IMG/VR virus record: IMGVR_UViG_3300021256_000097
From: a virus
Strand: one strand, 5' to 3'
Length of the DNA stretch: 64,000 nt
Below are positions 6,731 through 55,264 of this stretch, piece after piece; the first letter of the stretch is position 1, and each line of letters opens with the position of its first letter. The notes under the pieces are model-generated. The model did no database searches and was not told where the DNA came from. It saw only the letters and a list, made by a program, of their open reading frames with translations. Both the position numbers and the translations under genes were made by a program.

Positions 6731-7791
6731 TTTGTACCTTCTCTTAAATTAAACTTAAGACCACGCGCTTGCCTAAATCCCATGTCATAAGAACATTTAC
6801 AGCCGGGGAATCCGGTAGTTTCATCTGGTATTGCTCCCAAATATGGACAATAAGAACAAGAAAACTTTGTATAAGTACCAAGATTTGGAATATCAATAGT
6901 TGACCATGGTAATGAATCTGCTTCACGAACTACGGAAATATTATGCTTAATTACTTCATCAACATCTTCTGGTTTATAGTTAACACGTTTTACAGATGCT
7001 AACATATTATCATAATCATTATTATGTTTTTGATCTGAGAATGGGAAGAAAATAAAACAATCTATATTTTCATAGATTTGCTGGCTATTCCAACCTTGTG
7101 TCTGACCAACCATATAAGCATAAAGTACAATCTGTTTCTTATAAGATGCTGCTGAGCTACTTTTAGGACTTTTGTAGTCAAATATGATTACGTGCTCAAG
7201 TGACCCGTCAGGTTTATATTTATAAAGTGACAAGTCAAGGTTTCCTGTATAGAGATGATTATCAATATTTGACTTAAAAGTAAACTCTTTACGGGTTACA
7301 TATCCCTCAGCCTCTTTCTTTGTTACATATTCCGGCCAAAATAGCATAAAACGTCTGAAAGCTTCATCTTCTGAATATTTTGTTCTATCAACCTTATGCT
7401 CAAGAATCTTATCTTCAAGAATCTGTTGCATTTCTTCCATTGTCTTGCCAGATTCCATTTGTTCGGCCATTTCGTGGAAACAAGAACCTTTATGCGCTGC
7501 TTCAGTATTAGCTTCCTGATTAGGATCAAAAGGGCGTACATAACGATAATAATACTTAAGCATACACGCATCAAATGTAGAAATACGGCTATAACTCCAT
7601 TTAGGCGCAACTGTTATAAGGCCATCTTTTACCATAATCCAGTCGCCATCAGTGAGATGCTTTTTAATTTTATCTTTATTTTCCTTATCAAGGGGCAATT
7701 CAATATATGCATCACCTTTTACTACCCAATAGTCACCTTCATGTCCTACGGGTAATGGGTCTGTAACTTTCCAATCATTTATATATTGCAT
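6727..7791 (-). CDS. PD-(D/E)XK nuclease, Cas4/RecB-like with a C-terminal Cys cluster
   Basis: IIFDYKS (D/ExK), QIVLY (QxxxY), and C-terminal CSYCPY...CKC, which could be Fe-S cysteines. Confidence 0.55.
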   Translation of the reverse strand: MQYINDWKVTDPLPVGHEGDYWVVKGDAYIELPLDKENKDKIKKHLTDGDWIMVKDGLITVAPKWSYSRISTFDACMLKYYYRYVRPFDPNQEANTEAAHKGSCFHEMAEQMESGKTMEEMQQILEDKILEHKVDRTKYSEDEAFRRFMLFWPEYVTKKEAEGYVTRKEFTFKSNIDNHLYTGNLDLSLYKYKPDGSLEHVIIFDYKSPKSSSAASYKKQIVLYAYMVGQTQGWNSQQIYENIDCFIFFPFSDQKHNNDYDNMLASVKRVNYKPEDVDEVIKHNISVVREADSLPWSTIDIPNLGTYTKFSCSYCPYLGAIPDETTGFPGCKCSYDMGFRQARGLKFNLREGTK

Positions 7792-7802
7792 AGTAAAATC
7801 CT

Positions 7803-8111
7803 TTAATTAAAATAAACTTCTGAAATATCATCTTCTCCACTTAATATAGGCCCTTCTAAGGTTATACTATCAGAAGTTTCTATCTTATTCCATGCGTCCC
7901 CAAAATATATAAGAGTCGATCCACGGTCAAATTTAGAGTTTCCATTTGATACAACGCAGTAGTCACCCTCATTTGCTGATAAGGGTAAACTATTAGCATC
8001 ATATGTCCCAGTAAAATAGAGACCACTACGTGTATTAGAGATAGAGGAAGAAGTACATACTTCGTGTTCAATAACACTGAACGGAGCTTTATGTGCCATA
8101 TCACAAAGCAC
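7803..8111 (-). CDS. Hypothetical protein
   Basis: ORF in the minus-strand operon. Confidence 0.4.
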   Translation of the reverse strand: MLCDMAHKAPFSVIEHEVCTSSSISNTRSGLYFTGTYDANSLPLSANEGDYCVVSNGNSKFDRGSTLIYFGDAWNKIETSDSITLEGPILSGEDDISEVYFN

Positions 8112-44339: not shown

Positions 44340-45026
44340 TGAAGTCTAGAATGTTTACAAACAATTTGTACTAATTTAATTATGATTAGTAATGAAGAGT
44401 TTATAAGCATTGTAGAAAAATGTCAAACAATGGCACTAGCTGCCAAAAAAGTTGGTATGGCCTATACTTCCTTTATTAGGAAGGCAAAAAAACTTGGTTG
44501 TTATAAACCAAATCAAGGCCATAAAGGTGTTAAAACTGGTCATCCATCAAATTGGATCCGGACAGAAGACATCTTAGCTGGTAAGTACCCACAGTATCAA
44601 ACATATAAGTTAAAAGCTAGACTTATAACTGAGGGGTATTTAGAGGACAAATGTTCTTTATGTGGTTGGGATAAAAAGCCAGAAGGAGCAAGATTTACTC
44701 CTTGTGAGCTTGACCATATAAATGGAAATCCAACGGATCACAGATTTGAGAACTTAAGATTGATTTGTCCTAATTGCCATTCTCTTACTGAGACATATCG
44801 TTTCAGAAGAGGTAAGACAAATGAGTCACAAGGTAGGAAACTCCTTGATGAGAATGAGGCTAATTCGACGAACCCTTAACGATAGTTAAAGCGTTATGGC
44901 AACGACGAGCTAAGCAAAATGTGTAGAGACTATACACCTCGTACCTAAACAGAAATGCATGGTAATGAAATAGTCCAGACCACAAACCTTTTGTTTGATA
45001 AGGGTAATGAAAGTTATGGTGGTAAG
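44340..45026 (+). mobile_element. Group I intron in the tRNA-Leu anticodon loop, carrying an HNH homing endonuclease ORF
   Basis: The 5' exon ends in U and the intron ends in G (ggtaag|aaaa). The IGS aagtc pairs with exon gactt. P7 R/S-like elements tagagacta (about 44925) and aatagtcc (about 44970) are present. The insertion site is the same as in the classic tRNA-Leu(UAA) intron. Confidence 0.7.
44382..44879 (+). CDS. HNH homing endonuclease (intron-encoded)
   Basis: CSLCGW...ELDHINGNPTDHRFENLRLICPNCHS is an HNH motif with zinc cysteines. Confidence 0.85.
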   Translation: MISNEEFISIVEKCQTMALAAKKVGMAYTSFIRKAKKLGCYKPNQGHKGVKTGHPSNWIRTEDILAGKYPQYQTYKLKARLITEGYLEDKCSLCGWDKKPEGARFTPCELDHINGNPTDHRFENLRLICPNCHSLTETYRFRRGKTNESQGRKLLDENEANSTNP

Positions 45027-45165
45027 AAAATCCTGTGCTCGCTAAGGGCGTACGGGTTCAAGTCCCGTCTCGCGCAATGCACAGTAAAGTCTTTTGAAAT
45101 AATAAAGGCCATGGGACACTTAAGCTGTACGCTTTAGCCTGCTTTTCTTTGGTGTAGCCCAAGTC

Positions 45166-45207
45166 GCGGATTGAGGTGAAAGATGGTTCGACTCCATCCG
45201 TTCCGCA
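45166..45207 (+). ncRNA. tRNA-like module with an acceptor-like stem and a T-arm but no D-arm or anticodon arm (tRNA mimic, possibly YrlA-like)
   Basis: gcgga...tccgc stem. T-arm gatgg-ttcgact-ccatc. Only 9 nt separate the 5' stem strand from the T-arm. Confidence 0.3.
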
Positions 45208-45574
45208 TACGTGGCATAGAATTGAGGAGTAAATTGATCCTATGTGCATTTAGTGGATATCCCTACTTGCGCAATAAAAATAGGGGATTTTGAACGATTT
45301 TGTGTCCGCATACGTCGAGGCGACGTCATATTGTAACAGGTATGACAGGCGGTGCAACTCTCGCTATGTATGCATAGTGTTCAGGCATGCCTAACACGAA
45401 TTGAAAATCGCCAGGAGTAATTGACGAAAATTACGCGCGTTAAAGTAGTTGATGAATTATACTGGGAGCCTTAGAAAAACAACTGAGCCGCACTTGGTTG
45501 CTAAGGTATTGGGACTCGTACCAATTGAATATCCTACGATAAAGGCAGGGATAGCCACAACATCCAACCTTTAT

Positions 45575-45659
45575 GTATCAGTGGTCGAGAGGTCGAAGAC
45601 AGCAGACTGTTAATCTGCCGAGCGAAAGCCCACCACAGGTTCGAACCCTGTCTGATACG
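45575..45659 (+). tRNA. tRNA with anticodon GTT (Asn-like) and an atypically long 16-nt variable region. Identity is uncertain.
   Basis: Acceptor gtatcag/ctgatac. Anticodon stem gcaga/tctgc with loop ctGTTaa. T-arm acagg-ttcgaac-cctgt. Confidence 0.5.
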
Positions 45660-46151
45660 CTAAAAATCCAGGATCTAATACCTGGTTAGAAGTGTATTAG
45701 AGACCTAATATGAGCGGATGGTTTTACCAGATGAAACTTGTATTAGAAGGCTATTACTTTACAAATACTGTACGCTTGTGTCAGTCCTTGCGTTAACGAT
45801 GCGCAGGTATAACGGCTGGGAAGGTTCGTAGAAAGCCTAAGCTTAGAGTACTATGCTCAATACCGTAAGTCCGTCGCCTCAAGTTTGATTCTACCTATTA
45901 TATGATAAGGGTCGACTGACAGCCTACGGAAGTTTAGGGATTGATAGTAGGTGACCAATTATACGAGTCGTAATCCCTTTATAAATAACCATTATATGGA
46001 AGAGTCCTTAGGGAATGGCCTACCGAAATGGTAACAATGGGAATTGAAGTACTATTGGGGAGTGAACCGATTATAGGAACATTGTAGTATAGTGGTATTT
46101 ATAAACGATTTTTGTTAGTTATGTTAGTTTTATACTTTATTTGGTAAGCTA

Positions 46152-46164: not shown

Positions 46165-46428
46165 ATGAAATTATGCGTATAATATGAAAGTTGAAATTTC
46201 ATAAAATACGCTAATATAAATATAACAGAAAATGCTGTAGGATTAGGTTTACTTAGATTCTATTTTTGGTTTAGAAAAAACAAAGAGCCTATCCGATTTT
46301 TCGCTTTTCTTAATTTTGGAATTATATGTAAGCCGACTCCCTATTACCAAATCGGGACCCCTCCTTGTCGGATTCATATGAGACATAGTTACGGGAAGCA
46401 TGCGAATGCTTCCTTTTTTTTTATTTAT
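46165..46428 (+). ncRNA. Candidate small ncRNA, about 260 nt from promoter to terminator, immediately upstream of the Ro60-like gene (possible Y-RNA-like RNA)
   Basis: The unit is bounded by the promoter and the gggaagcatgcgaatgcttcc+T9 terminator. An internal 13-bp hairpin gcgtataatatgaaa/tttcataaaatacgc is present. No ORF or RBS. Confidence 0.35.
46393..46424 (+). terminator. Intrinsic terminator
   Basis: gggaagcat gcga atgcttcc plus T9. Confidence 0.7.
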
Positions 46429-46471
46429 AAAATTATTTAATAAACTTCAGTTTGAAGTGAGGAGAAATAAA

Positions 46472-47917
46472 GTGAGTAAGGTTAATCAGAAAGCCAGTGT
46501 AGCAGAAGCTAAGAAGGTTTATGTACCGGGCGTTAAGGAAGATGCAAGACGTACTCTTATGACTTGTCTCTTGTGGGAAGATGAATACTATGAAAATGGT
46601 GTTTCAATTGCTGACCGCCTTAGGGGATATGTAAAACGCCTTAGCGAGCAGGATTGTCGTGAATTGTTATTGGAAGCAAAGTTCCAGAACAAGCTTCGCC
46701 ACGCTCCATTATTCTGGGCTGTTCAGATGGCAAAAGAAGGAAAGCTTAAGGCAGACGATGTTGCAAAGATTTGTGACCGTGTAGATACAATGGCTGACCT
46801 TTTGGCTATTTACTTTGATGAAAACCCTCTTTCAGACTCAGAAAAGTCAAAGTGTTATAAAAACGGAAATCGTGTGCACCGTGATAACAAAGCGGTACCA
46901 AAAGCAATTACAAAGGGCCTTCAGAAAGCAATTGAAAACCCAAGATTCGACGAATACGCTTTTGCAAAGTATCGTCTTGAGGATAAAGCAATCAAGACTC
47001 GCGACGTAATTCGTCTTGCACACGTAAAGCCATCAACCCCAGAACGTTCAGCTTTGTATAAGAAAGTACTTGATGGCACACTTGCGACTCCAGATACATG
47101 GGAAGTAGCTATCTCTGCTGCAGGTTCAGACATGAACGCTAAGCGTGACGCTTGGACTCGTTTGCTTTCAGAGAATAAGCTTGGTGTATTGGCATTGCTT
47201 CGTAACCTTAATGGTATGAGCCGTGCAGGTGTTGACCAGGCTAAGATTCGTAAGGCAGTAAAAGCAGCTTCAATTGGTCGTGTACTCCCATTCCAGATTG
47301 TAACTGCTTCAAGACACGCGCCAGAATTGGCAGATGTATTGAACACAAAGTTCATGGAATCTGTTGAAAACGTTGAAAAGCTTGAGGGAGAATCTCTTGT
47401 ACTTGTAGATGTTTCTGGTTCTATGAATGCTCCATTGTCAGCTAAGTCTGATACAAAACGTGTAGACGTAGCTGCTGCTCTTGGAGCTCTTGTAAAGGAA
47501 GTAAGTAAGGGTAGCGTAATCTACGCATTCGACGACAGCCTTAGACCAGTATCAACTGACCTTGCTGGATTGCCACTTGTACGTGAGCTTTCAAGAAATG
47601 GTGGTTGTACTGCAGTAGCAGAGTGTACAGAAAGAGCTATTAAAAACTACAGAAATTCACATGGCGGACGTGATCCAGCTCGTGTTATTGTAGTAACAGA
47701 CGCTCAGGACAACTCTTCTTACAACCGCGGTTGGGGCTGTGAATACGATGTAGCACGTATGCCAAAGGTTCCTTATGGAACTGGTTACATTGTAAATGTT
47801 GGAGCTCAGAAGAATGGCGTTGAATACGCGCTTCACTCTGGCTGGATGACTGTTTACGGATGGTCAGACAATATTGTTAAGTACATTGCAGCTTTGGAAA
47901 ATGAAAGACGCAAGTAA
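46472..47917 (+). CDS. rsr: Ro60/Rsr-like protein (TROVE plus vWA)
   Basis: CLLWEDEYYENG (TROVE-like), ALLRNLNG (Ro60 ALLRNLG signature), and vWA MIDAS LVDVSGSM. GTG start after GAGGAG. Confidence 0.6.
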   Translation: MSKVNQKASVAEAKKVYVPGVKEDARRTLMTCLLWEDEYYENGVSIADRLRGYVKRLSEQDCRELLLEAKFQNKLRHAPLFWAVQMAKEGKLKADDVAKICDRVDTMADLLAIYFDENPLSDSEKSKCYKNGNRVHRDNKAVPKAITKGLQKAIENPRFDEYAFAKYRLEDKAIKTRDVIRLAHVKPSTPERSALYKKVLDGTLATPDTWEVAISAAGSDMNAKRDAWTRLLSENKLGVLALLRNLNGMSRAGVDQAKIRKAVKAASIGRVLPFQIVTASRHAPELADVLNTKFMESVENVEKLEGESLVLVDVSGSMNAPLSAKSDTKRVDVAAALGALVKEVSKGSVIYAFDDSLRPVSTDLAGLPLVRELSRNGGCTAVAECTERAIKNYRNSHGGRDPARVIVVTDAQDNSSYNRGWGCEYDVARMPKVPYGTGYIVNVGAQKNGVEYALHSGWMTVYGWSDNIVKYIAALENERRK

Positions 47918-48660: not shown

Positions 48661-49344
48661 ATGAATCTAAGTAAGAAACATACGAAAAAACAAAAGAAGC
48701 CGCTTTCATGGTCAACACATTTCTGGGTTGTAGCATATACTATAGGTTACATGATTTTAACCCTTTTATACTGCTTACCTAGACTTATAGTTCAGCTAGC
48801 CGGACCTGGATTTAATCCATATTGGCTATCTGTAACGGCGACAAGTGGAATTCCATTGGAAATCTTTGCTTGGGGCTTGTTAGTAATCTGTGCTGGATAT
48901 TCTGGTATAGACAGAGCTTCATTAGCAACAAAGTCATCCATGATGGAAGTAGGATGCTGCGATATGGGCGATCCTGCAAAATTAAGAAGCGTAATTTATT
49001 TGCTGACGGCAGTATTCATTGAGAGTATTGCTTTGAACTTCTTCTTTGGGCAGGATTTTACAAAGATGACTGTTATTGCAGGAACTACGGAAGAAATAAC
49101 TAGGGTTTACCCTGGATTAAATCTTCCATTGGAAGGCGTGAGCTCCGCCTTAATGTCAACAGTTGTTGTATATGTTCTTGGTAACAAGTCTATACGTTTA
49201 ACTCAAACAATGGACCATACAAAAGCAGATGAGGATTGGGCTGATGAGAAAGAAGACCGAGTTTATGTAAAGAACGCGGAAAGTACTCAGCCAGCTGAAA
49301 AATCCGATCTAGGGTATCATGAAGATGAAATCCTAGGCATGTAG
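48661..49344 (+). CDS. Multi-pass membrane protein
   Basis: Several hydrophobic helices. Confidence 0.5.
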   Translation: MNLSKKHTKKQKKPLSWSTHFWVVAYTIGYMILTLLYCLPRLIVQLAGPGFNPYWLSVTATSGIPLEIFAWGLLVICAGYSGIDRASLATKSSMMEVGCCDMGDPAKLRSVIYLLTAVFIESIALNFFFGQDFTKMTVIAGTTEEITRVYPGLNLPLEGVSSALMSTVVVYVLGNKSIRLTQTMDHTKADEDWADEKEDRVYVKNAESTQPAEKSDLGYHEDEILGM

Positions 49345-49439
49345 ATTCATGTTGAGATATAAATAACCTTAAAGGTTCGCCGGTTCCACGACGAGCCTTT
49401 TTTTATTATTTATGCCAATATATAATTATTGGAGAGCTT

Positions 49440-49610
49440 ATGAAACCTATAATTTTATTTTTTGCTGGTTTCGTGATTTTAGGATTTTCACTAATGCTAA
49501 AGTCCGGATATACACCTATAAAAACTGTAGAGTCGGATAAGTCATATAAGCTTGAAGCAGTTTGTCCAAAGAAACATTGGAAAAATGAAATTCCTGTAAA
49601 AGATATTTAG
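49440..49610 (+). CDS. Small membrane protein (56 aa), not in the ORF track
   Basis: GGAGAG RBS and an N-terminal TM segment. Confidence 0.3.
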   Translation: MKPIILFFAGFVILGFSLMLKSGYTPIKTVESDKSYKLEAVCPKKHWKNEIPVKDI

Positions 49611-49669
49611 GATTCTACAGTAGAGGCTACATATTATATATGTAGCTTTTATTATATATGGAGGTAGCT

Positions 49670-50071
49670 ATGAGAACAAAAGAAAAGAAATACGTATTGG
49701 ATAATGGATCAGTACGCCTTCCAATTGCAAGCAAACTTGTTAAGAACATTTACAATGATAAGTTTGTTGGATGGTCCCGTTACGGAAGTTATGGTACTCT
49801 TGCATTCAATTTCACAAAGCCAAAGAACACTACCTATTTTCAGATTCTGAAGTCTTTCTACGACAATATGCTGCCTATGCGTATGGGTGATGCAAAACAG
49901 TCTGTTGGACTTCCGCGTAATTATTGGTCAACCTTTACTGGTGCAGTAACTGATTTTGGCCTTCTCCGTCGCGTTCCGGGTTCGTGGAACTATGAGCTTA
50001 CTTCAACTGGCATGATCTATGTCAAAGAAGTTCTTGCTGGCCGTGACGAGTTCCAGATTGTACAGGCCTAA
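49670..50071 (+). CDS. Hypothetical protein
   Basis: Promoter 49629-49638 and a GGAGG RBS. Confidence 0.5.
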   Translation: MRTKEKKYVLDNGSVRLPIASKLVKNIYNDKFVGWSRYGSYGTLAFNFTKPKNTTYFQILKSFYDNMLPMRMGDAKQSVGLPRNYWSTFTGAVTDFGLLRRVPGSWNYELTSTGMIYVKEVLAGRDEFQIVQA

Positions 50072-50074
50072 ATC

Positions 50075-50446
50075 ATGATTCAGCGAATGAAAACAAAAGC
50101 CCCGAAATATCGAGGTGTATCAGATAATATTAAAGCGCAGTTGCGACAGCTTGACGAGGGCCTTCACCAGTTTGACTATCTTGACAAGAATTGTATTTAT
50201 ATTAAGAAATGGCACTACAAGCAGCATCGTAACTGGTTTACTAAAACATATCGTACAAAGAGAAGTCGGGATATGATGGTAAGAACAGTAAGTTGTGTTC
50301 CGGGTTCTGATAGCATTAGAGACCAGATTTACGCAATTCTGGATAAGAATGTAAACCTGCCTCATACTAAAAAAGGGCTTGCTAAGTATTTGAATCGTAA
50401 ACTTAAGGAAGTCCAGTTGGATAGGTATTGGGTAATTTTTTACTAA
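50075..50446 (+). CDS. Hypothetical basic protein
   Basis: ORF, coupled to the upstream gene. Confidence 0.45.
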   Translation: MIQRMKTKAPKYRGVSDNIKAQLRQLDEGLHQFDYLDKNCIYIKKWHYKQHRNWFTKTYRTKRSRDMMVRTVSCVPGSDSIRDQIYAILDKNVNLPHTKKGLAKYLNRKLKEVQLDRYWVIFY

Positions 50447-50498
50447 TCACTTATACTTCTGCAGTTTTATTTACATATAATATTTGTATGGAGGAATT

Positions 50499-50723
50499 AT
50501 GAAAAAGGTATTCAATATTCTTGTTCAGGTATCAGTTGAAGATACAGGTCGAGAAAACATCATCAAGCATTTGGATAACATTTGTAATAATGTAAACAAT
50601 TGCTGTCAGACGGAACCTGAAAGTGATGTTACTGGCGAAGCAATTATTGATGGCTACTGGAATTCAGAGGAAGACTATATGGCGGGTCAAGATTGCCGTG
50701 ATGATGATAACTGGGAGGAATAA
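50499..50723 (+). CDS. Small acidic protein
   Basis: Promoter 50473-50482 and a GGAGGA RBS. Confidence 0.45.
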   Translation: MKKVFNILVQVSVEDTGRENIIKHLDNICNNVNNCCQTEPESDVTGEAIIDGYWNSEEDYMAGQDCRDDDNWEE

Positions 50724-50996
50724 ATGGAAGAAGCTAAGTTAGAAGAAGTTCAGACATTAGCTGACTACACCCAGTTTGTAAAAAATATGGACCCAAAACT
50801 TAAAATAAGATTTGGTGGAATACATGGCGATCCAATGGTAGGTTTCCAGTTGGGTAATATTAAGCAGATGTACAGGATGGATTCCGGAAATAACTTTCCA
50901 AAGTTTGTTATGGATTCACATCTTAAGTTTATGCAGGATTTGGCTCTTAATCACTTAAAAGATCCAGATGCTCAGGAGGTAATTTTTGGCAAATAA
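50724..50996 (+). CDS. Hypothetical protein
   Basis: Coupled start. Confidence 0.45.
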   Translation: MEEAKLEEVQTLADYTQFVKNMDPKLKIRFGGIHGDPMVGFQLGNIKQMYRMDSGNNFPKFVMDSHLKFMQDLALNHLKDPDAQEVIFGK

Positions 50997-51210
50997 AGCA
51001 AGCGCTTCAGCTTCAAGCGGAATTGGTATTGGAACAGTATGTTTTATTGTATTCGTAATTTTGAAGGTTATGAATATCGCACCTATCGCAAGCTGGTCTT
51101 GGCTTAAGGTAATTCTTTTACCGGTAGCTATCAGTTTTATTCCAGCACTGATTGTAATGTTTTTCTGGATAATTGGTCTTCTTTTCCTTTGGCTTTTTTC
51201 AAGGAAATAG
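50986..51210 (+). CDS. Small membrane protein
   Basis: Two TM helices. Confidence 0.4.
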   Translation: MANKASASASSGIGIGTVCFIVFVILKVMNIAPIASWSWLKVILLPVAISFIPALIVMFFWIIGLLFLWLFSRK

Positions 51211-51228
51211 GCTAATCTATTATTGTAA

Positions 51229-51238
51229 ACATATTATA
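51229..51238 (+). promoter_or_regulatory. Promoter core ACATATTATA upstream of the tmRNA
   Basis: Core motif about 60 nt before the tmRNA 5' end. Confidence 0.55.
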
Positions 51239-51297
51239 CAAAGTTAAAAATATTTATTTAAAAAATATTACATTTAAAAAACGTATAAATATATTAT

Positions 51298-51663
51298 GGG
51301 CCTGACTTTGGAATCGATTGGTATCAGAGTAGTCTATGTATCATGCACAGTGGTTATTGTACCCTAAAAGCAACGTAAGTAATCGACGCACAGAACGAAT
51401 ATGCAATGGCTGCGTAAGCAACCTAGCATCTAGAGACTTCGAGAGCTCTAGCGCTTGAACCAACAGATGTAGGTGGTATGGTTTTAAGTGTGGCTACTAC
51501 CTTCTAGGAAGCAGTGAGAGGCGGAGCGAGAGCTTGTAACTGTAACGACAATACTAGGGCAGAATCCGGTTGCCGGTCCCGAATCGAAAAAAGGCTTAAG
51601 CATGTAGAGAAGTACATATTCAAAAAGGTAAGCAAGACGAGAGTTCGAAACTCTCCAGGTCCA
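51298..51663 (+). ncRNA. ssrA: tmRNA (SsrA), standard one-piece form. The tag reading frame is (D)AQNEYAMAA-stop at 51385/51388-51417.
   Basis: The 5' end GGGCCTGACTTTGGAATCGATTGG matches tmRNA GGGGCTGATTCTGGATTCGACGGG. The conserved TAAGCATGTAG motif is present. The 3' tRNA-like end is gagag-ttcgaaa-ctctc plus acceptor caggtcc, which pairs with the 5' gggcctg. The ORF gca cag aac gaa tat gca atg gct gcg taa is present. Confidence 0.8.
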
Positions 51664-51689
51664 GTTCGGTAAATATAACTAATTTAAGT

Positions 51690-52382
51690 ATGGAAACAGA
51701 AAGAATTAGATATATTTATCAAATTACAAATTTGGTTAATGGAAAAACTTATTTTGGTCAACGTACTAGAAGCTTAAAGTATACTTCTTCTTTAGCAGAT
51801 ATGTATTGGGGATCAGGAGTTTTATTAAAAAAAGCTAAAGAAAAATATGGCTTAGAAAATTTTGAGAAGAAAATTATAATAGAGGGTCATTTTTCTAAGG
51901 AACAGATAAATCGCTTTGAAAGATGTATAATACGTATTCAGCGTTTTATAGGTAAAGCAGAGTATAATCTTGCAGATGGTGGTGATGGTGGTGATACCTC
52001 AAGATTTATAGATTATTCCTCAATTGAACGTTCAGAAAATATTTCGAATGCAATGAAGGAAGCTTATAAAGAAGGTAAAATAAAACCACGCGGGTGGACC
52101 TTTCATAAGGGTATGAAAGGGAAACATCAATCTGATGATGCTAAAGAAAAAATTCGAAAGGCACAGTCAGGATGTAAAAATTCACAATATGGCAAGCATC
52201 GTTCTGAAGAAACAAAAAAGCGAATACGAACTGCTTTAGCGAGAGATTATAAAGCTGAATATAAAGAGCTGTATGAAGCTTTTTTAGACCATGTTTTATC
52301 TTCTGATGAAAAAAGGCTTTTTGCTAAGAAATATAATATTGCATATGACTCTATAAATAGAGTTTTAAGGCAATTTATATAG
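51690..52382 (+). CDS. GIY-YIG homing endonuclease (I-TevI/Seg-like, with NUMOD3 repeats), free-standing directly after the tmRNA
   Basis: YIYQITNLVNGKTYFGQ (GIY-YIG), YNLADGGDGGDT, and repeated KGMKGKHQSDDAKEKIRKA / QYGKHRSEETKKRIRTA NUMOD3-like motifs. Confidence 0.85.
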   Translation: METERIRYIYQITNLVNGKTYFGQRTRSLKYTSSLADMYWGSGVLLKKAKEKYGLENFEKKIIIEGHFSKEQINRFERCIIRIQRFIGKAEYNLADGGDGGDTSRFIDYSSIERSENISNAMKEAYKEGKIKPRGWTFHKGMKGKHQSDDAKEKIRKAQSGCKNSQYGKHRSEETKKRIRTALARDYKAEYKELYEAFLDHVLSSDEKRLFAKKYNIAYDSINRVLRQFI

Positions 52383-52483
52383 ATTTCCTTGTTTCAAAGT
52401 AAACAAGGTGGTGGAAGGTTGTATCTAACTGGATACATCCCTCAGTGTTTTTAGGACTTATCTTCTTTCTGCTAATATAGCAG

Positions 52484-52897
52484 TTGGAGGATATGGTTTT
52501 GAAAACATATTTTTTTGTAGCTGTTGTAGTTGCTGGTGTAACTGAATGGCTTAAGAATTTCCTTCCTGCAAAGGTAGTGGAAAACAATAAGGCAATGGCT
52601 GGAATTGCTGGCGCAATGTCAGTAATTGGATCTCTCGCTTACATCTTTATCAATAAAGCAATTAATCCAGATGTAGCTCTTACATGGCAGAATATTATAG
52701 TATTTACTGTAATGGTTGTTGGTCTTGTTCAGGTCAGCTATAATGTACTTGTACAGACTTTCAAAGCTGTTAAAACAAAGCTGACACAGAAAGCGGGTGT
52801 TGATCCAGAAACTGCTGCTGATGAGATTGCTGATAAGGTTATTGAGGGAATTACAAGCGAAGTAACAGGTTTGCCTACAACTAAAAAAGAAAAGTAA
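52484..52897 (+). CDS. Membrane protein, possibly holin-like (speculative)
   Basis: 2-3 TM helices and a charged C-terminus. Confidence 0.4.
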   Translation: MEDMVLKTYFFVAVVVAGVTEWLKNFLPAKVVENNKAMAGIAGAMSVIGSLAYIFINKAINPDVALTWQNIIVFTVMVVGLVQVSYNVLVQTFKAVKTKLTQKAGVDPETAADEIADKVIEGITSEVTGLPTTKKEK

Positions 52898-52967
52898 GTT
52901 TAGCTAGTTTTGTACTTCTACAGTAGAATAAACATATTATATATGTAATCTATTTGTGGAGGTACTT

Positions 52968-53291
52968 ATGGTTGAATTGAAATTCAAAAGTTGGGAAGCA
53001 TTTCAGAAAGTTCCCCTTCAGATTCTTAAGATGAAGTTTCTTGAGAAGCAGTGTCTTAATGAAAAGGGTGAACGTGAAATTGCAATCACAGTTGATGTAG
53101 CTGGTGATGAATTTACTTATGGCGTACGTTATTTTTCTAATATGAACGTTGCTATGAGATTTGAGATAATTTTCGAAATGTCACAGTTTGATGACAATAT
53201 TGAATGTTGTCCAGAACTTCGCCAGTGTCATACAGCAGATGAAGCTTGGGCTTTTCTTGAGGAGCAACTTAAAGAAAAGTTCGGCAACTGA
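52968..53291 (+). CDS. Hypothetical protein
   Basis: Promoter 52932-52941 and a GGAGG RBS. Confidence 0.5.
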   Translation: MVELKFKSWEAFQKVPLQILKMKFLEKQCLNEKGEREIAITVDVAGDEFTYGVRYFSNMNVAMRFEIIFEMSQFDDNIECCPELRQCHTADEAWAFLEEQLKEKFGN

Positions 53292-53493
53292 GAGCTAGGC
53301 TATGGCTGACTTGAACAACCTAAATGCCGTTAGTAACTAAAAAAGCCTTTACGGTTTTCTGGAGAAAACTACTTCGTATGTAGATGCTTGTCCTCTGAGG
53401 AGGCAAGTTAGACTTTAGTTTTAATTTAGTAAACATTTGGAACACGACGCTCGAAAAGGGTGTCGTGCTTTATTATTTCTGGAGGACTATTAT

Positions 53494-53679
53494 ATGTCTC
53501 AACTTATTGCCAATTTTATGGCTAATGTTCATGCATTTGGTGTTGACCCAATTTCAACAGCAATTGTCAGTTTTCTTATTGTAGATGTTCTTGTTATTGC
53601 GACATGTCTTATTAAAATTGCTATAATCTCAAGTAAAGAGAAAAAGCCACCAAAAGTGCGCAGATTCGGATCGTACTAA
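53494..53679 (+). CDS. Small membrane protein
   Basis: GGAGG RBS and one TM helix. Confidence 0.4.
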   Translation: MSQLIANFMANVHAFGVDPISTAIVSFLIVDVLVIATCLIKIAIISSKEKKPPKVRRFGSY

Positions 53680-53703
53680 ATTCATACTTATCAGAAAATA
53701 ATC

Positions 53704-53713
53704 ACATATTATA
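53704..53713 (+). promoter_or_regulatory. Promoter core ACATATTATA. An untranslated leader of about 280 nt follows before the sigma-factor gene.
   Basis: Core motif. The leader contains hairpins gtcttcaatagatagaagac and ctcaaccttgagtgttgagg. Confidence 0.5.
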
Positions 53714-53995
53714 TTTATAGTTACGCGATTAAATACGCGTACACGGTTAATCGATAGCTGGTCACGCTATAGCAGAGCTGTCTTCAATAGATAGAAGACA
53801 AAGCGGTTTTAGAGGATGACTGCTGGAGGTTTATTCAATGCTAGAACGTTTTTTGTCTCTCAACCTTGAGTGTTGAGGAAAGGCAACAAATGGCGCGGAT
53901 TAGTACTTACCGCTTAAAATAATAAGTAACATTCTTAAATATATAGTCTTCTATTCTTAACACTCAAGGCGAGTAAATTAAGATAGGAGACGCGA

Positions 53996-54697
53996 GTGTT
54001 TGAAGAAAAAACTGATTATGAGCTTTTCGCTCAGTACATTAAAAACCCAGGAGCAAATGAGGGAGACAAGAAAGCTGCTCTAACTCAACTCTGGATGCGT
54101 TATGAGGCGCTTACACACAAGATGGGACACGTACTTGAAGCGAGACGCAACAAAGGTAATTTCTACGGACTAGAAACAGAGACTTACTATTCCGATTTTT
54201 ATGATGCTTTCTTGAAGGCAGTTGATGGTTTGCAGCTCAGTAAAATTAAAACTGATCCAAAGACTTGGAAGTTCTGGATTCAGTATAATGGCTACTTGCG
54301 TTCTGCTAATCGTGATAAGATTAATGATTATTGCCGCATAACAAAGCATGAAAGACCAATTACGGTTACAAATGAAGATGGAGAGGAAGTCAGCATTGCA
54401 GATTTATGTGGTTCAGAATATTCTGCTACAATTGAAGATGATTACTTTAAGAGTGAAGAATCAGTAGTTCTTAAAGAAGCAATCAAAAATGCTTATTCAA
54501 AGTTTTCCGATAAGCAGAAGAAGATTTGGTCAATGCGTGAGGGTGGCGATACCTTTACAGCAATAGCTAAATCAATGAATGTATCATCTAGCTCCATTAA
54601 ATATCAGATGAATCGCATTAAAGACGTTTTACGCAGTGAGTTAAACGAGTCAAATAAGCGACATAACACTGAAATTCGTCCTGCTTGCTTAATGTAA
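53996..54697 (+). CDS. Sigma-70-family sigma factor (regions 2 and 4; small, FliA/ECF-like)
   Basis: FLKAVDGLQLSK...WKFWIQYNGYLRSA (region 2.2-2.3-like) and the C-terminal HTH FTAIAKSMNVSSSSIKYQMNRIKDVL (region 4). GTG start after AGGAG. Confidence 0.7.
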   Translation: MFEEKTDYELFAQYIKNPGANEGDKKAALTQLWMRYEALTHKMGHVLEARRNKGNFYGLETETYYSDFYDAFLKAVDGLQLSKIKTDPKTWKFWIQYNGYLRSANRDKINDYCRITKHERPITVTNEDGEEVSIADLCGSEYSATIEDDYFKSEESVVLKEAIKNAYSKFSDKQKKIWSMREGGDTFTAIAKSMNVSSSSIKYQMNRIKDVLRSELNESNKRHNTEIRPACLM

Positions 54698-54701
54698 AAT
54701 A

Positions 54702-54736
54702 AAAGCCCAGACTTAATGCCTGGGCTTTTGTTTTTA
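54702..54736. terminator. Bidirectional terminator between convergent genes
   Basis: aaaagcccagacttaatgcctgggctttt. Confidence 0.65.
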
Positions 54737-54743
54737 TTGGTGG

Positions 54744-54878
54744 CTAACGCCAGAGTAAAACTTCTGGGTTATTTACGATCTTGGTAGCTGCTCCTTCGAT
54801 TCCAGCTTTCCAATCATAAGTTCCATTCTTAATAGCTTTTTTAATAGCTTTAACCTTTTCTGATTTGATTTTTGGCAT
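54744..54878 (-). CDS. FlgM-like anti-sigma peptide (44 aa), not in the ORF track
   Basis: EKVKAIKKAIKNGTYDWKAGIEGAATKIV matches the FlgM C-terminal sigma-28-binding region ([27 protein letters not shown]). It has its own AGGAGG RBS and a minus-strand ACATATTATG promoter at 54891-54909. Confidence 0.4.
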   Translation of the reverse strand: MPKIKSEKVKAIKKAIKNGTYDWKAGIEGAATKIVNNPEVLLWR

Positions 54879-54928
54879 TATACCAATTCCTCCTGTTATA
54901 CATAATATGTATATATCTATGCAGAAGT

Positions 54929-55264
54929 CTAATTTTTTATATTTTCTTTTAAGAAATTACGATAAGCTTTATTAAAGATAGCTTTATTTACTCCGAGAGT
55001 AGCATAATTTATGCTAGTTGTACCAGGTGCCGGAGGTGGAGTAACATCGAGCTTATCAAATACTTTGTGAATAACTTTCTTTTCTGACTCAGAGAGTTTA
55101 TTAAAATCAAATCCTACTATAGATAACGCATCTTCATGTACTTTATACACATTACGGTTCGCTATTTCGCCCTTAGCATTTCTATACTTGAATGCTACCA
55201 TTTTTGAATCATCAGCTACGGCTTCTTCAGCAACTTGTGTTGAATCTAATACTTCTTCTTCCAT
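54929..55264 (-). CDS. Hypothetical protein, a paralog of 61320..61589. The true start is probably the internal M22.
   Basis: About 40% identity to the + strand paralog (NAKGE...VTP.P....S.DYA.LG). Confidence 0.5.
   Translation of the reverse strand: MEEEVLDSTQVAEEAVADDSKMVAFKYRNAKGEIANRNVYKVHEDALSIVGFDFNKLSESEKKVIHKVFDKLDVTPPPAPGTTSINYATLGVNKAIFNKAYRNFLKENIKN

What the first reader, a model, noticed from the sequence alone, without database searches (positions are those of the whole stretch)
51690..52382. Free-standing GIY-YIG (I-TevI/Seg-type) homing endonuclease next to the tmRNA gene
The protein has a clear GIY-YIG catalytic motif and NUMOD3 repeats. It has no RBS or promoter of its own and starts 27 nt after the tmRNA 3' end. 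Free-standing HEGs typically target a neighbouring conserved gene in related phages, here probably ssrA. I checked for a group I intron context and found no P7 R/S pair in the correct order, so a free-standing arrangement is more likely.
Basis: partly seen in the sequence, partly recalled or inferred. Interest (0 to 1): 0.5.

Follow-up and report, generated by a model that had tools for sequence, protein, structure and literature searches.

The report
Homing endonuclease gene beside phage tmRNA
A selfish "homing" nuclease gene of the T4 Seg type sits directly behind the tmRNA gene of a ~573 kb rumen megaphage, and related phages carry it, lack it or keep only a stump of it at that same spot, so it is a real but fairly ordinary mobile element in a niche I found no description of.

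Summary
ORF 51690-52382 (+, 230 aa) is a Seg/I-TevI-type GIY-YIG endonuclease with a NUMOD3 region and a C-terminal helical domain. It starts 26 nt after the 3' end of a tmRNA gene (51298-51663).

- All eight family members located through protein homology start 25-35 nt after a tmRNA.
- Among tmRNA loci found with a tmRNA-only DNA pattern, 4 carry the gene, 20 lack it and 2 keep deletion stumps.
- Matched pairs have 96-100% identical flanks. They differ only in a ~705-nt cassette versus a 36-60-nt spacer, lying between the tmRNA end and a conserved hairpin.
- Both the endonuclease gene and the tmRNA are mosaics of alleles.
- The catalytic half is under strong purifying selection.
- No group I intron is present.

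Closest known analogue: T4 SegB, which sits in a tRNA cluster and recognises the tRNA T-arm.

Not shown here: cleavage activity, the exact target, and co-transcription with the tmRNA.

Verdict: a new member of a known kind, in a niche (phage tmRNA) I did not find described. Moderate interest.

The parts
51298..51663 (+). Phage tmRNA gene (ssrA). The acceptor stem is GGGCCUG/CAGGUCC with a G3-U70 pair. No CCA is encoded.
   Evidence: ARAGORN. Rfam RF00023, 54.1 bits above the gathering score of 47. Sequence read.
51385..51417 (+). tmRNA tag reading frame: GAC GCA CAG AAC GAA TAT GCA ATG GCT GCG TAA, giving (A)DAQNEYAMAA*.
   Evidence: ARAGORN places the coding part at 88-120 of the gene. Sequence.
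51639..51663 (+). T-arm (GAGAG-TTCGAAA-CTCTC), the 3' acceptor strand CAGGTCC and the discriminator A. This is the left border of the endonuclease cassette and the inferred part of the homing site.
   Evidence: High identity between alleles begins at AGGTCCA (A1; A2). The target role is inferred by analogy with the SegB site GGTTCRANTCC...CCAR.
51664..51689 (+). 26-nt leader of the endonuclease gene. It has no SD motif. It contains ACTAATT (51678-51684), which is shared by all 13 family loci examined.
51690..52382 (+). Free-standing Seg-type GIY-YIG homing endonuclease gene, 230 aa. Catalytic domain about aa 1-100 (51690-51989). Variable linker aa 101-140. NUMOD3 aa 144-180 (52119-52229). Helical C-terminal domain to aa 230.
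52387..52415 (+). Conserved hairpin CCTTGTTT-CAAAGT-AAACAAGG followed by GGTGGTGGA. It is native to the tmRNA locus, because relatives without the endonuclease also have it. It forms the right border of the cassette. It may be the 3' end or terminator element of the tmRNA transcript.
   Evidence: Covariation: 5 of 7 pairs have compensatory changes in 12 sequences.

Best explanation
ORF 51690-52382 is a free-standing homing endonuclease gene of the T4 Seg / I-TevI (GIY-YIG + NUMOD3 + helical DNA-binding) type. It occupies the gap between the mature 3' end of the phage's tmRNA gene and a conserved hairpin that normally follows it.

Shown here:
- The protein's family and fold.
- Purifying selection on the gene.
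- The invariant position of its relatives behind tmRNA (or tRNA) genes.
- Alleles that carry the gene, lack it or keep a stump of it, at the same site in closely related phages, including within the same metagenomes.
- Mosaic recombination of both the endonuclease gene and the tmRNA.

Inferred:
- The gene has no SD motif and no promoter-like match, so it is read as the 3' extension of the tmRNA transcript. It would be freed when the CCA-less tmRNA 3' end is processed.
- In a mixed infection, the protein makes a double-strand break in the genome that lacks the endonuclease, at or near the tmRNA 3' end. By analogy with SegB it would use the T-arm/acceptor DNA, probably together with the first bases of the native trailer.
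- Repair from the genome that carries the gene copies the cassette, and sometimes adjoining tmRNA sequence, into the cut genome.
- The carrier genome is probably protected because the cassette replaces the native trailer. In the pair L018/L024, the 87 nt read up to the tmRNA 3' end and the 110 nt after the cassette are identical between the two alleles, so a site lying wholly in one flank would not distinguish them.
For: Identity of the protein:
- NUMOD3, 39.9 bits.
- PHROG 314, 7.7e-30.
- 43% identity to the T4 SegB catalytic domain, E 2e-17.
- A profile of 35 family members hits only I-TevI among PDB sequences, both the catalytic and the DNA-binding domain, in the right order.
- Foldseek's top 3 matches are the I-TevI catalytic domain, probability 1.00.

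Functional constraint: over the N-terminal 100 codons against L008, L010 and L017 there are 9-12 synonymous and 0-1 non-synonymous differences.

Position:
- All eight family loci reached through protein homology start 25-35 nt after a tmRNA. These are the window, L008, L009, L010, L012, L050, L051 and L053.
- L013, L017, L018 and L046, found through a tmRNA pattern, do the same.
- The homologue in L015 starts 26 nt after tRNA-Glu inside a tRNA array.
- Distant homologues in L001 also sit in a tRNA array.

Polymorphism:
- The tmRNA-pattern sample gave distinct junction sequences as follows: 4 with the gene, 20 without and 2 stumps.
- L012(+) versus L029(-): 96% identity over 778 nt upstream and 4236 nt downstream, with 705 nt replaced by 60 nt.
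- L018(+) versus L024(-): 97.5% over 3474 nt upstream and 100% over 110 nt downstream, with 710 nt replaced by 36 nt.
- L040 is the closest syntenic relative of the window. It keeps only the leader joined to the last ~47 nt of the ORF, at an AAATATA microhomology.
- Alleles with and without the gene co-occur in metagenomes Ga0326511 and Ga0326512.

Recent transfer:
- Window versus L010: the flanks are unrelated, the tmRNA is 76% identical, and identity then rises to 98-100% from AGGTCCA through the first ~300 nt of the ORF.
- Break-points differ between loci.

Precedent: SegB lies 41 nt after tRNA-Ile in T4. It recognises GGTTCRANTCC plus CCAR inside tRNA genes and drives preferential inheritance of the tRNA region (PMC2330249).
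Against: - No cleavage, target site or transcript has been observed. The link to ssrA as the target is positional only.
- The native spacers of alleles without the gene are unrelated to one another and 3-63 nt long. A single bipartite site spanning the tmRNA end and the hairpin is therefore not obvious.
- The tmRNA 3' ends of some alleles with and without the gene are identical (L009/L018 versus L024; L012 versus L029). No 'immune' substitutions are seen in the tmRNA.
- The canonical Arg27 of I-TevI has no clearly aligned invariant counterpart. SegB shares the same H/R-[ST] arrangement and is active.
- For the window protein alone, Pfam's GIY-YIG models fall just below threshold.
- The promoter scan is only a consensus scan, and its hits are not enriched over shuffles.
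Confidence: 0.8

Rival explanations
1. The nuclease is kept mainly because it helps the phage. It would act as a weapon that cuts the tmRNA genes (or other tRNA-like genes) of competing phages or of the host, excluding their markers. It would not be a purely selfish homing element.
For: The association with tmRNA holds across very divergent phages and tmRNA types, with tags DAQNEYAMAA, DETEYEDLAMVA, ATKRSVVARGSRAAFARAA and AAKTFAPAVVARVA. The gene is under purifying selection. SegB-type enzymes cut many tRNA genes through the shared T-arm motif. A 2026 paper's abstract reports that SegB helps phage T6 evade bacterial immunity (PMC13096335, listed; full text not read).
Against: Most tmRNA loci of the clade lack the gene: 20 distinct junctions against 4. 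Two loci show it being deleted. That patchiness is the usual signature of a selfish element rather than a needed function. No bacterial genome among the GTDB representatives carries this tmRNA core, so a host target of this type is not evident. The two readings are not mutually exclusive.
Confidence: 0.12
2. The ORF is a decaying or catalytically dead relic, or only a DNA-binding protein, left over from an old invasion and no longer mobile.
For: The homing cycle predicts degeneration, and stumps exist in L040 and L044. An Arg27 equivalent is not clearly conserved. The Pfam GIY-YIG score is below the cut-off.
Against: The ORF is full length. dN/dS is 0.00-0.02 in the catalytic domain and 0.22-0.42 overall. 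The invariant residues (Y8, Y10, Y21, G23, E77, N93) correspond to the I-TevI active-site Tyr/Tyr/Glu/Asn. Near-identical cassettes lie next to divergent tmRNAs, which indicates recent transfer.
Confidence: 0.05
3. The ORF belongs to a group I intron or another spliced or larger gene that interrupts or extends the tmRNA.
For: Introns are known to invade tRNA-like genes. A weak Intron_gpI match exists elsewhere in the window (44808-44999, 26.1 bits). In L009 a different 1.08-kb element does interrupt the tmRNA.
Against: No intron family match was found in 49000-55000 at E<=1. The ORF begins after the complete acceptor stem and discriminator base. Relatives without the gene have the same complete tmRNA. 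The stop codon position is shared by homologues, with TAA in L008, L009 and L046.
Confidence: 0.03

Closest known systems
Phage T4 SegB (free-standing GIY-YIG homing endonuclease in the tRNA gene cluster; Brok-Volchanskaya et al. 2008, PMC2330249)
   Same: Same protein type: 43% identity in the catalytic domain, E 2e-17. Same layout: the gene starts a few tens of nt after the 3' end of a tRNA-like gene, on the same strand (41 nt after tRNA-Ile in T4; 26 nt here). Relatives lack the gene. SegB's site is the T-arm motif plus CCAR at the tRNA 3' end, which are features the tmRNA tRNA-like domain also has.
   Different: The neighbour here is a tmRNA, not a tRNA, in a ~573 kb rumen megaphage rather than a T-even phage. 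The C-terminal DNA-binding part is unrelated to that of SegB, since BLASTP aligns only aa 8-101. Cleavage and preferential inheritance are shown for SegB and not for this protein.
I-TevI (intron-encoded GIY-YIG endonuclease of T4 td)
   Same: Same domain order: GIY-YIG catalytic domain, flexible linker, NUMOD3-type minor-groove element, helical DNA-binding end. The only PDB sequence hits (1MK0/1LN0 and 1I3J) and the best structural matches are I-TevI.
   Different: I-TevI is encoded inside a group I intron, and its site is split by the intron. This gene is free-standing. No zinc finger is visible; the protein has only two Cys, at positions 79 and 162.
Other T4-type Seg proteins (SegA, SegD, SegE) and PHROG 314
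   Same: They are the best database matches at 35-37% identity, in PHROG 314 and in Pfam SegE_GIY-YIG. All are free-standing intergenic genes with patchy distribution.
   Different: Those sit between protein-coding genes and target protein-coding neighbours.
Mobile elements that use ssrA: integrases targeting the tmRNA 3' end, and the group I intron in a clostridial tmRNA (from my own knowledge, not checked here)
   Same: The tmRNA gene 3' region serves as a conserved landing site for mobile DNA.
   Different: The mechanisms differ (site-specific recombination or ribozyme splicing). Those elements act in bacterial chromosomes rather than phage genomes.

Membership tests
GIY-YIG homing endonucleases (Seg / I-TevI type) | GIY-YIG catalytic domain, by sequence and fold | tested here: met
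   PHROG 314, 7.7e-30. SegB BLASTP, 43%, 2e-17. 33 of 35 family members hit PF19835. Foldseek's top 3 matches are the I-TevI catalytic domain, probability 1.00, TM 0.65-0.70. Caveat: the window protein alone scores 23.9 bits against a cut-off of 25 for PF19835, and E 0.52 for PF01541.
GIY-YIG homing endonucleases (Seg / I-TevI type) | Active-site residues: Tyr of GIY, Tyr of YIG, Arg27, Glu75, Asn90 (I-TevI numbering) | tested here: inconclusive
   Y8/Y10, Y21, E77 and N93 are invariant in 35 sequences and align with I-TevI Y6, Y17, E75 and N90. No invariant Arg aligns with R27; position 25 is R or H. SegB has the same pattern and is active.
GIY-YIG homing endonucleases (Seg / I-TevI type) | Separate C-terminal DNA-binding region (NUMOD3, helix-turn-helix) joined by a variable linker | tested here: met
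   NUMOD3, 39.9 bits against 20.4. The profile matches the I-TevI DNA-binding domain 1I3J weakly, E 0.12. The C-terminal three-helix bundle resembles homeodomain-type folds, probability about 0.7. The linker is the most variable segment.
Free-standing homing endonuclease genes | Not inside an intron or intein; lies between genes | tested here: met
   It starts after the complete tmRNA. No intron match. Relatives lacking it have an intact tmRNA plus a short spacer.
Free-standing homing endonuclease genes | Presence/absence polymorphism at the same site in close relatives, with signs of gene conversion | tested here: met
   Pairs L012/L029 and L018/L024. Stumps in L040 and L044. Mosaic identity profile. 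Identity jump at the tmRNA end.
Free-standing homing endonuclease genes | Site-specific double-strand cleavage of the allele lacking the gene, and super-Mendelian inheritance in mixed infection | not testable with these tools
   Needs protein expression, cleavage mapping and phage crosses. The phage is uncultured.
SegB-like endonucleases that target tRNA-type genes | Gene placed directly downstream of a tRNA-like gene | tested here: met
   26 nt after the tmRNA here. 25-35 nt after a tmRNA in the 11 other tmRNA-adjacent loci. 26 nt after tRNA-Glu in L015. T4 segB lies 41 nt after tRNA-Ile.
SegB-like endonucleases that target tRNA-type genes | Recognition of the T-arm (GGTTCRANTCC) and the 3' CCAR of the RNA gene | not testable with these tools
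   The window tmRNA has AGTTCGAAACT and ...TCCAG at its end. Binding or cleavage was not measured.
Group I intron-encoded endonucleases | ORF embedded in a group I ribozyme core that splices from the host RNA | tested here: not met
   No Intron_gpI match in 49000-55000 at E<=1. The ORF lies 3' of the mature RNA.

The most novel reading that the evidence does not exclude
This is one member of a widespread lineage of Seg-type endonucleases specialised on the tRNA-like 3' end of the tmRNA genes of huge phages. By cutting there they drive wholesale swapping of tmRNA alleles, a ribosome-rescue function, between co-infecting megaphages. They may also cut the ssrA of rival phages or of the host, so the element would double as a competition weapon.
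Probability: 0.25. Interest if true: 0.6.

Novelty: new member of a known kind. Interest (0 to 1): 0.4.

Why it matters
It gives a clean natural example of the full homing cycle (invasion, spread, decay, loss) in uncultured rumen megaphages, anchored on a non-coding RNA gene. It suggests that tmRNA alleles of huge phages are shuffled by a selfish nuclease, much as T4 SegB moves the tRNA cluster.

In practice, the family offers candidate endonucleases that may recognise tRNA-like DNA. It also explains a source of local mosaicism that can confuse the assembly and binning of megaphage genomes. It does not reveal a new kind of system.

Tried and rejected
- Megablast of 50000-54000 against 50,697 phage records found no match.
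- IMG/VR scans with the downstream 137-aa ORF, the sigma factor and the TROVE protein found no relative. The scan with the endonuclease itself gave only distant hits.
- A GTDB genome scan with the tmRNA core pattern gave no hit, so no host clue came from it.
- ARAGORN and Rfam at gathering threshold reported no tmRNA in L008, L009 and L012. This first made me think close homologues sat in a tmRNA-free context. Direct alignment and blastn showed the tmRNAs are there, so I withdrew that idea.
- I first read the tmRNA plus endonuclease pair as lying in different genomic contexts. tblastn of the neighbours showed the locus is syntenic (up123 ... tmRNA ... sigma) and that it is the TROVE module that differs in position.
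- Reading TAG as a sense codon (alternative code), which would extend the ORF: rejected. TAG ends 17 of 55 long + strand ORFs, and homologues stop at the same position with TAA.
- Other endonuclease families directly after the tmRNA in loci lacking this gene: none seen.
- Pfam and PHROG on the flanking small ORFs gave nothing informative.
- MAFFT misplaced the L040 stump and could not align the second downstream hairpin. Those points rest on direct reading of the sequences.
- Comparing the first trailer bases or the T-arm sequences of alleles with and without the gene by eye gave no clean discriminating pattern.

Full report
**Observation**

The window has an ATG-to-TAG ORF at 51690-52382 (+, 230 aa). 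A tmRNA gene lies at 51298-51663 with tag DAQNEYAMAA (ARAGORN). Rfam RF00023 scores it 54.1 bits against a gathering score of 47. The sequence shows a 7-bp acceptor stem GGGCCUG/CAGGUCC with a G3-U70 pair and no encoded CCA. A 26-nt spacer separates the tmRNA from the ATG.

The spacer holds no Shine-Dalgarno motif, whereas 46 of 83 + strand ORFs have GGAG/GAGG upstream (background 5%). It also holds no promoter-like match. No group I intron model matches 49000-55000 at E<=1.

**What the protein is**

- Pfam gives NUMOD3 above threshold (39.9 bits, aa 144-180).
- SegE_GIY-YIG scores 23.9 bits, just under its 25-bit cut-off. The general GIY-YIG model is not significant.
- PHROG 314 'homing endonuclease' matches at 7.7e-30.
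- tblastn finds T4 SegA/SegD-like genes at 35-37% identity.
- The catalytic domain is 43% identical to T4 SegB (E 2e-17).
- In an alignment of 35 family members the first ~100 residues are highly conserved. R7, Y8, Y10, Y21, G23, E77, Y92 and N93 are invariant. The linker and C-terminal modules vary.
- 33 of the 35 members hit SegE_GIY-YIG and 28 hit NUMOD3.
- The family profile finds only I-TevI among PDB sequences: the catalytic domain 1MK0/1LN0 and the DNA-binding domain 1I3J, in the right order but weakly (E 0.08-0.14).
- An AlphaFold model has mean pLDDT 73, and 82-90 in the N-terminal domain. Its top three PDB matches are the I-TevI catalytic domain, with probability 1.00 and target TM 0.65-0.70. 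The C-terminal three-helix bundle resembles homeodomain-type DNA-binding folds.
- An invariant counterpart of I-TevI Arg27 is not evident. SegB shares this arrangement and is an active enzyme.

**Source**

The exact protein is encoded twice on one 940,564-bp ENA scaffold, 573,277 bp apart. The assembly is therefore a concatemer of a ~573 kb circular genome. I infer that it is a megaphage from a sheep-rumen data set. The window carries a replicative helicase, clamp loaders, a sigma factor and a Ro60/TROVE-like protein. Nothing similar is in the phage GenBank collection or, by protein anchors, in IMG/VR.

**The family sits behind tmRNA genes**

The large protein database holds 284 homologues. 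I looked up seven of them, at 87% to about 49% identity.

- In L010, L050, L051 and L053, ARAGORN and/or Rfam (51-80 bits) report a tmRNA. By ARAGORN's ends it stops 25-35 nt before the ATG in L050, L051 and L053.
- In L008, L009 and L012 both programs reported nothing at their thresholds. Alignment and blastn show tmRNAs 76-92% identical to the window's, ending at the same distance from the ATG.

So all eight loci reached through the protein alone are tmRNA-adjacent. A homologue in L015 starts 26 nt after tRNA-Glu(CTC) inside a 24-tRNA array. Distant homologues in L001 also lie in a tRNA array. All 13 loci share an ACTAATT motif 6-9 nt before the ATG and lack an SD motif.

**Alleles with the gene, without it, and with a stump**

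A 26-base pattern from the tmRNA core, blind to the endonuclease, recovered 3 IMG/VR loci and 33 metagenome loci. Counting distinct junction sequences, 4 carry the gene (L013, L017, L018, L046), 20 lack it and 2 keep remnants.

Matched pairs define the cassette:
- L012(+) and L029(-) are 96% identical for 778 nt up to the tmRNA 3' end and for 4236 nt from just after the stop codon. Here 705 nt are replaced by 60 nt.
- L018(+) and L024(-) are 97.5% identical over 3474 nt upstream and 100% over 110 nt downstream. Here 710 nt are replaced by 36 nt.
- The same two allele types come from the same metagenomes: L038 and L025 from Ga0326511, L018 and L027 from Ga0326512.

L040 is the closest syntenic relative of the window. 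Its TROVE protein is 75% identical, the upstream 123-aa protein 85%, the downstream 132-aa protein 70% and the sigma factor 85%. It keeps only the leader fused to the last ~47 nt of the ORF, across an AAATATA microhomology. L044 joins GTTCGGTAAA of the leader to a downstream GGTAAA, which removes the gene and the hairpin.

The hairpin that follows the stop codon in the window (52387-52408, then GGTGGTGGA) also follows the tmRNA in most loci lacking the gene. It belongs to the tmRNA locus, not to the cassette. Five of its 7 pairs show compensatory changes in 12 sequences. The nonamer occurs twice in the window against 0.09 expected.

**Mosaicism and selection**

Between the window and L010 the flanks are unrelated and the tmRNA is 76% identical. 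From AGGTCCA, the 3' acceptor strand, through the first ~300 nt of the ORF, identity is 98-100%. Identity to the window, measured in 50-nt bins, switches between roughly 55% and 96-100% at different points in different loci, in both the tmRNA and the ORF. For example, L018 matches the middle of the tmRNA at 191/200 positions but the catalytic half of the ORF at only 50-74%. L012 does the reverse for the NUMOD3 half.

In the catalytic half, synonymous differences outnumber non-synonymous ones 9-12 to 0-1 against three alleles. Whole-gene dN/dS is 0.22-0.42. The gene is therefore functional and recombines often.

**How it most likely works**

Shown: family, fold, constraint, position, polymorphism and mosaic transfer.

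Inferred: the cassette has inserted into the tmRNA transcription unit, between the mature RNA and its terminal hairpin. It would be expressed as the 3' extension of the tmRNA precursor.

In mixed infections the protein would cut genomes lacking the gene near the tmRNA 3' end, and repair would copy the cassette in. The nearest studied case is T4 SegB. It lies 41 nt after tRNA-Ile. It recognises a 27-bp site with the T-arm motif GGTTCRANTCC and a 3' CCAR. It cuts inside the tRNA genes of T2L and is inherited at nearly 100% in crosses (PMC2330249). The tmRNA's tRNA-like domain offers the same features (AGTTCGAAACT ... TCCAG).

L018 and L024 are identical over the last 87 nt of the tmRNA and over the 110 nt after the cassette. 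A site that tells them apart must therefore include the native trailer that the cassette replaces. That trailer varies between lineages (3-63 nt), which leaves the exact site open.

**Rivals**

- A beneficial competition or host-attack nuclease is compatible with the data but not needed. The gene is absent from most tmRNA loci and is seen being deleted.
- A dead relic is contradicted by the selection data.
- An intron or a larger gene is contradicted, by the intact tmRNAs of alleles lacking the gene, and by the shared stop position (TAA in L008, L009 and L046).

**Comparison and novelty**

This is a Seg-type free-standing homing endonuclease, the same kind of element as SegB. What I did not find described is the niche. 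Papers on huge phages mention tmRNAs but no endonuclease beside them. A full-text search for tmRNA, homing endonuclease and phage returned 98 papers. None of the 15 listed titles and abstract openings concerned this association, and the rest were not read. I rate it a new member of a known kind, of moderate interest.

Noticed in passing
whole window (source scaffold ERZ28612970 scaffold_1): The source contig is 940,564 bp and contains this region twice, 573,277 bp apart. The assembly is therefore a concatemer of a ~573 kb circular megaphage genome.
   Followed up: partly
window 52387-52445, and the same position in L008, L010, L012, L014, L016, L020, L024, L029, L034, L039, L047, L050 and L053: A conserved element follows the tmRNA whether or not the endonuclease is present. 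It consists of a hairpin (5 of 7 pairs with compensatory changes), a near-invariant GGTGGTGGA and a second hairpin. It has no T-run, so it is not a classical terminator. Its function is unknown.
   Followed up: partly
L009:6653-7733: In one relative the tmRNA gene is interrupted just after the tag stop codon by a 1081-nt insert. The insert carries a 313-aa ORF (DUF7487, 28.5 bits; weak PHROG 'endonuclease' hits). L024 and L018 have an uninterrupted tmRNA there. It is a second, different mobile element in the same RNA gene. Whether it splices is unknown.
   Followed up: partly
L008:8785-8853 (also L009, L012, L024, L044), just upstream of the TROVE/Ro60-like ORF; window TROVE ORF 46400-47917: A tRNA-like element (Rfam tRNA 24.2 bits, below the gathering score of 29, E 0.006) lies about 50 nt before the phage Ro60-like gene. 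It may be a YrlA-type Y RNA.
   Followed up: partly
window 44382-45660: An HNH endonuclease ORF lies at 44382-44879 (PF01844, 25.7 bits). It overlaps a weak group I intron match at 44808-44999 (26.1 bits, gathering score 50). Segment 44873-45572 is 94.6% identical to L040 while the surrounding genes are 73-79% identical. It precedes tRNA-Asn here but a tRNA-Gln copy in L040. This may be another mobile element next to tRNA genes.
   Followed up: no
window, + strand ORFs of at least 120 aa: Stop codon use is TAA 36, TAG 17 and TGA 2. TGA is almost never a stop on the coding strand. I did not test whether TGA is recoded.
   Followed up: no
L015:1197-11922: A related ~300 kb phage contig has a tmRNA without the endonuclease, followed by 24 tRNA genes. 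These include one with anticodon TTA, which would read the TAA stop codon. A 46%-identical endonuclease homologue is inserted 26 nt after tRNA-Glu(CTC).
   Followed up: partly
L008:7609-8000, L012:7608-7999, L009:6557-6652 plus 7734-8000: ARAGORN and Rfam at gathering threshold both miss these phage tmRNAs, although they are 76-92% identical to the window's detected tmRNA. tmRNA counts in megaphage surveys may therefore be underestimates.
   Followed up: yes
L010:4434-4550 and L050:1432-1548: Rfam tRNA matches (46-50 bits) cover the full 71-position model but span 117 nt. ARAGORN does not call them. They may be intron-containing or otherwise expanded tRNAs.
   Followed up: no
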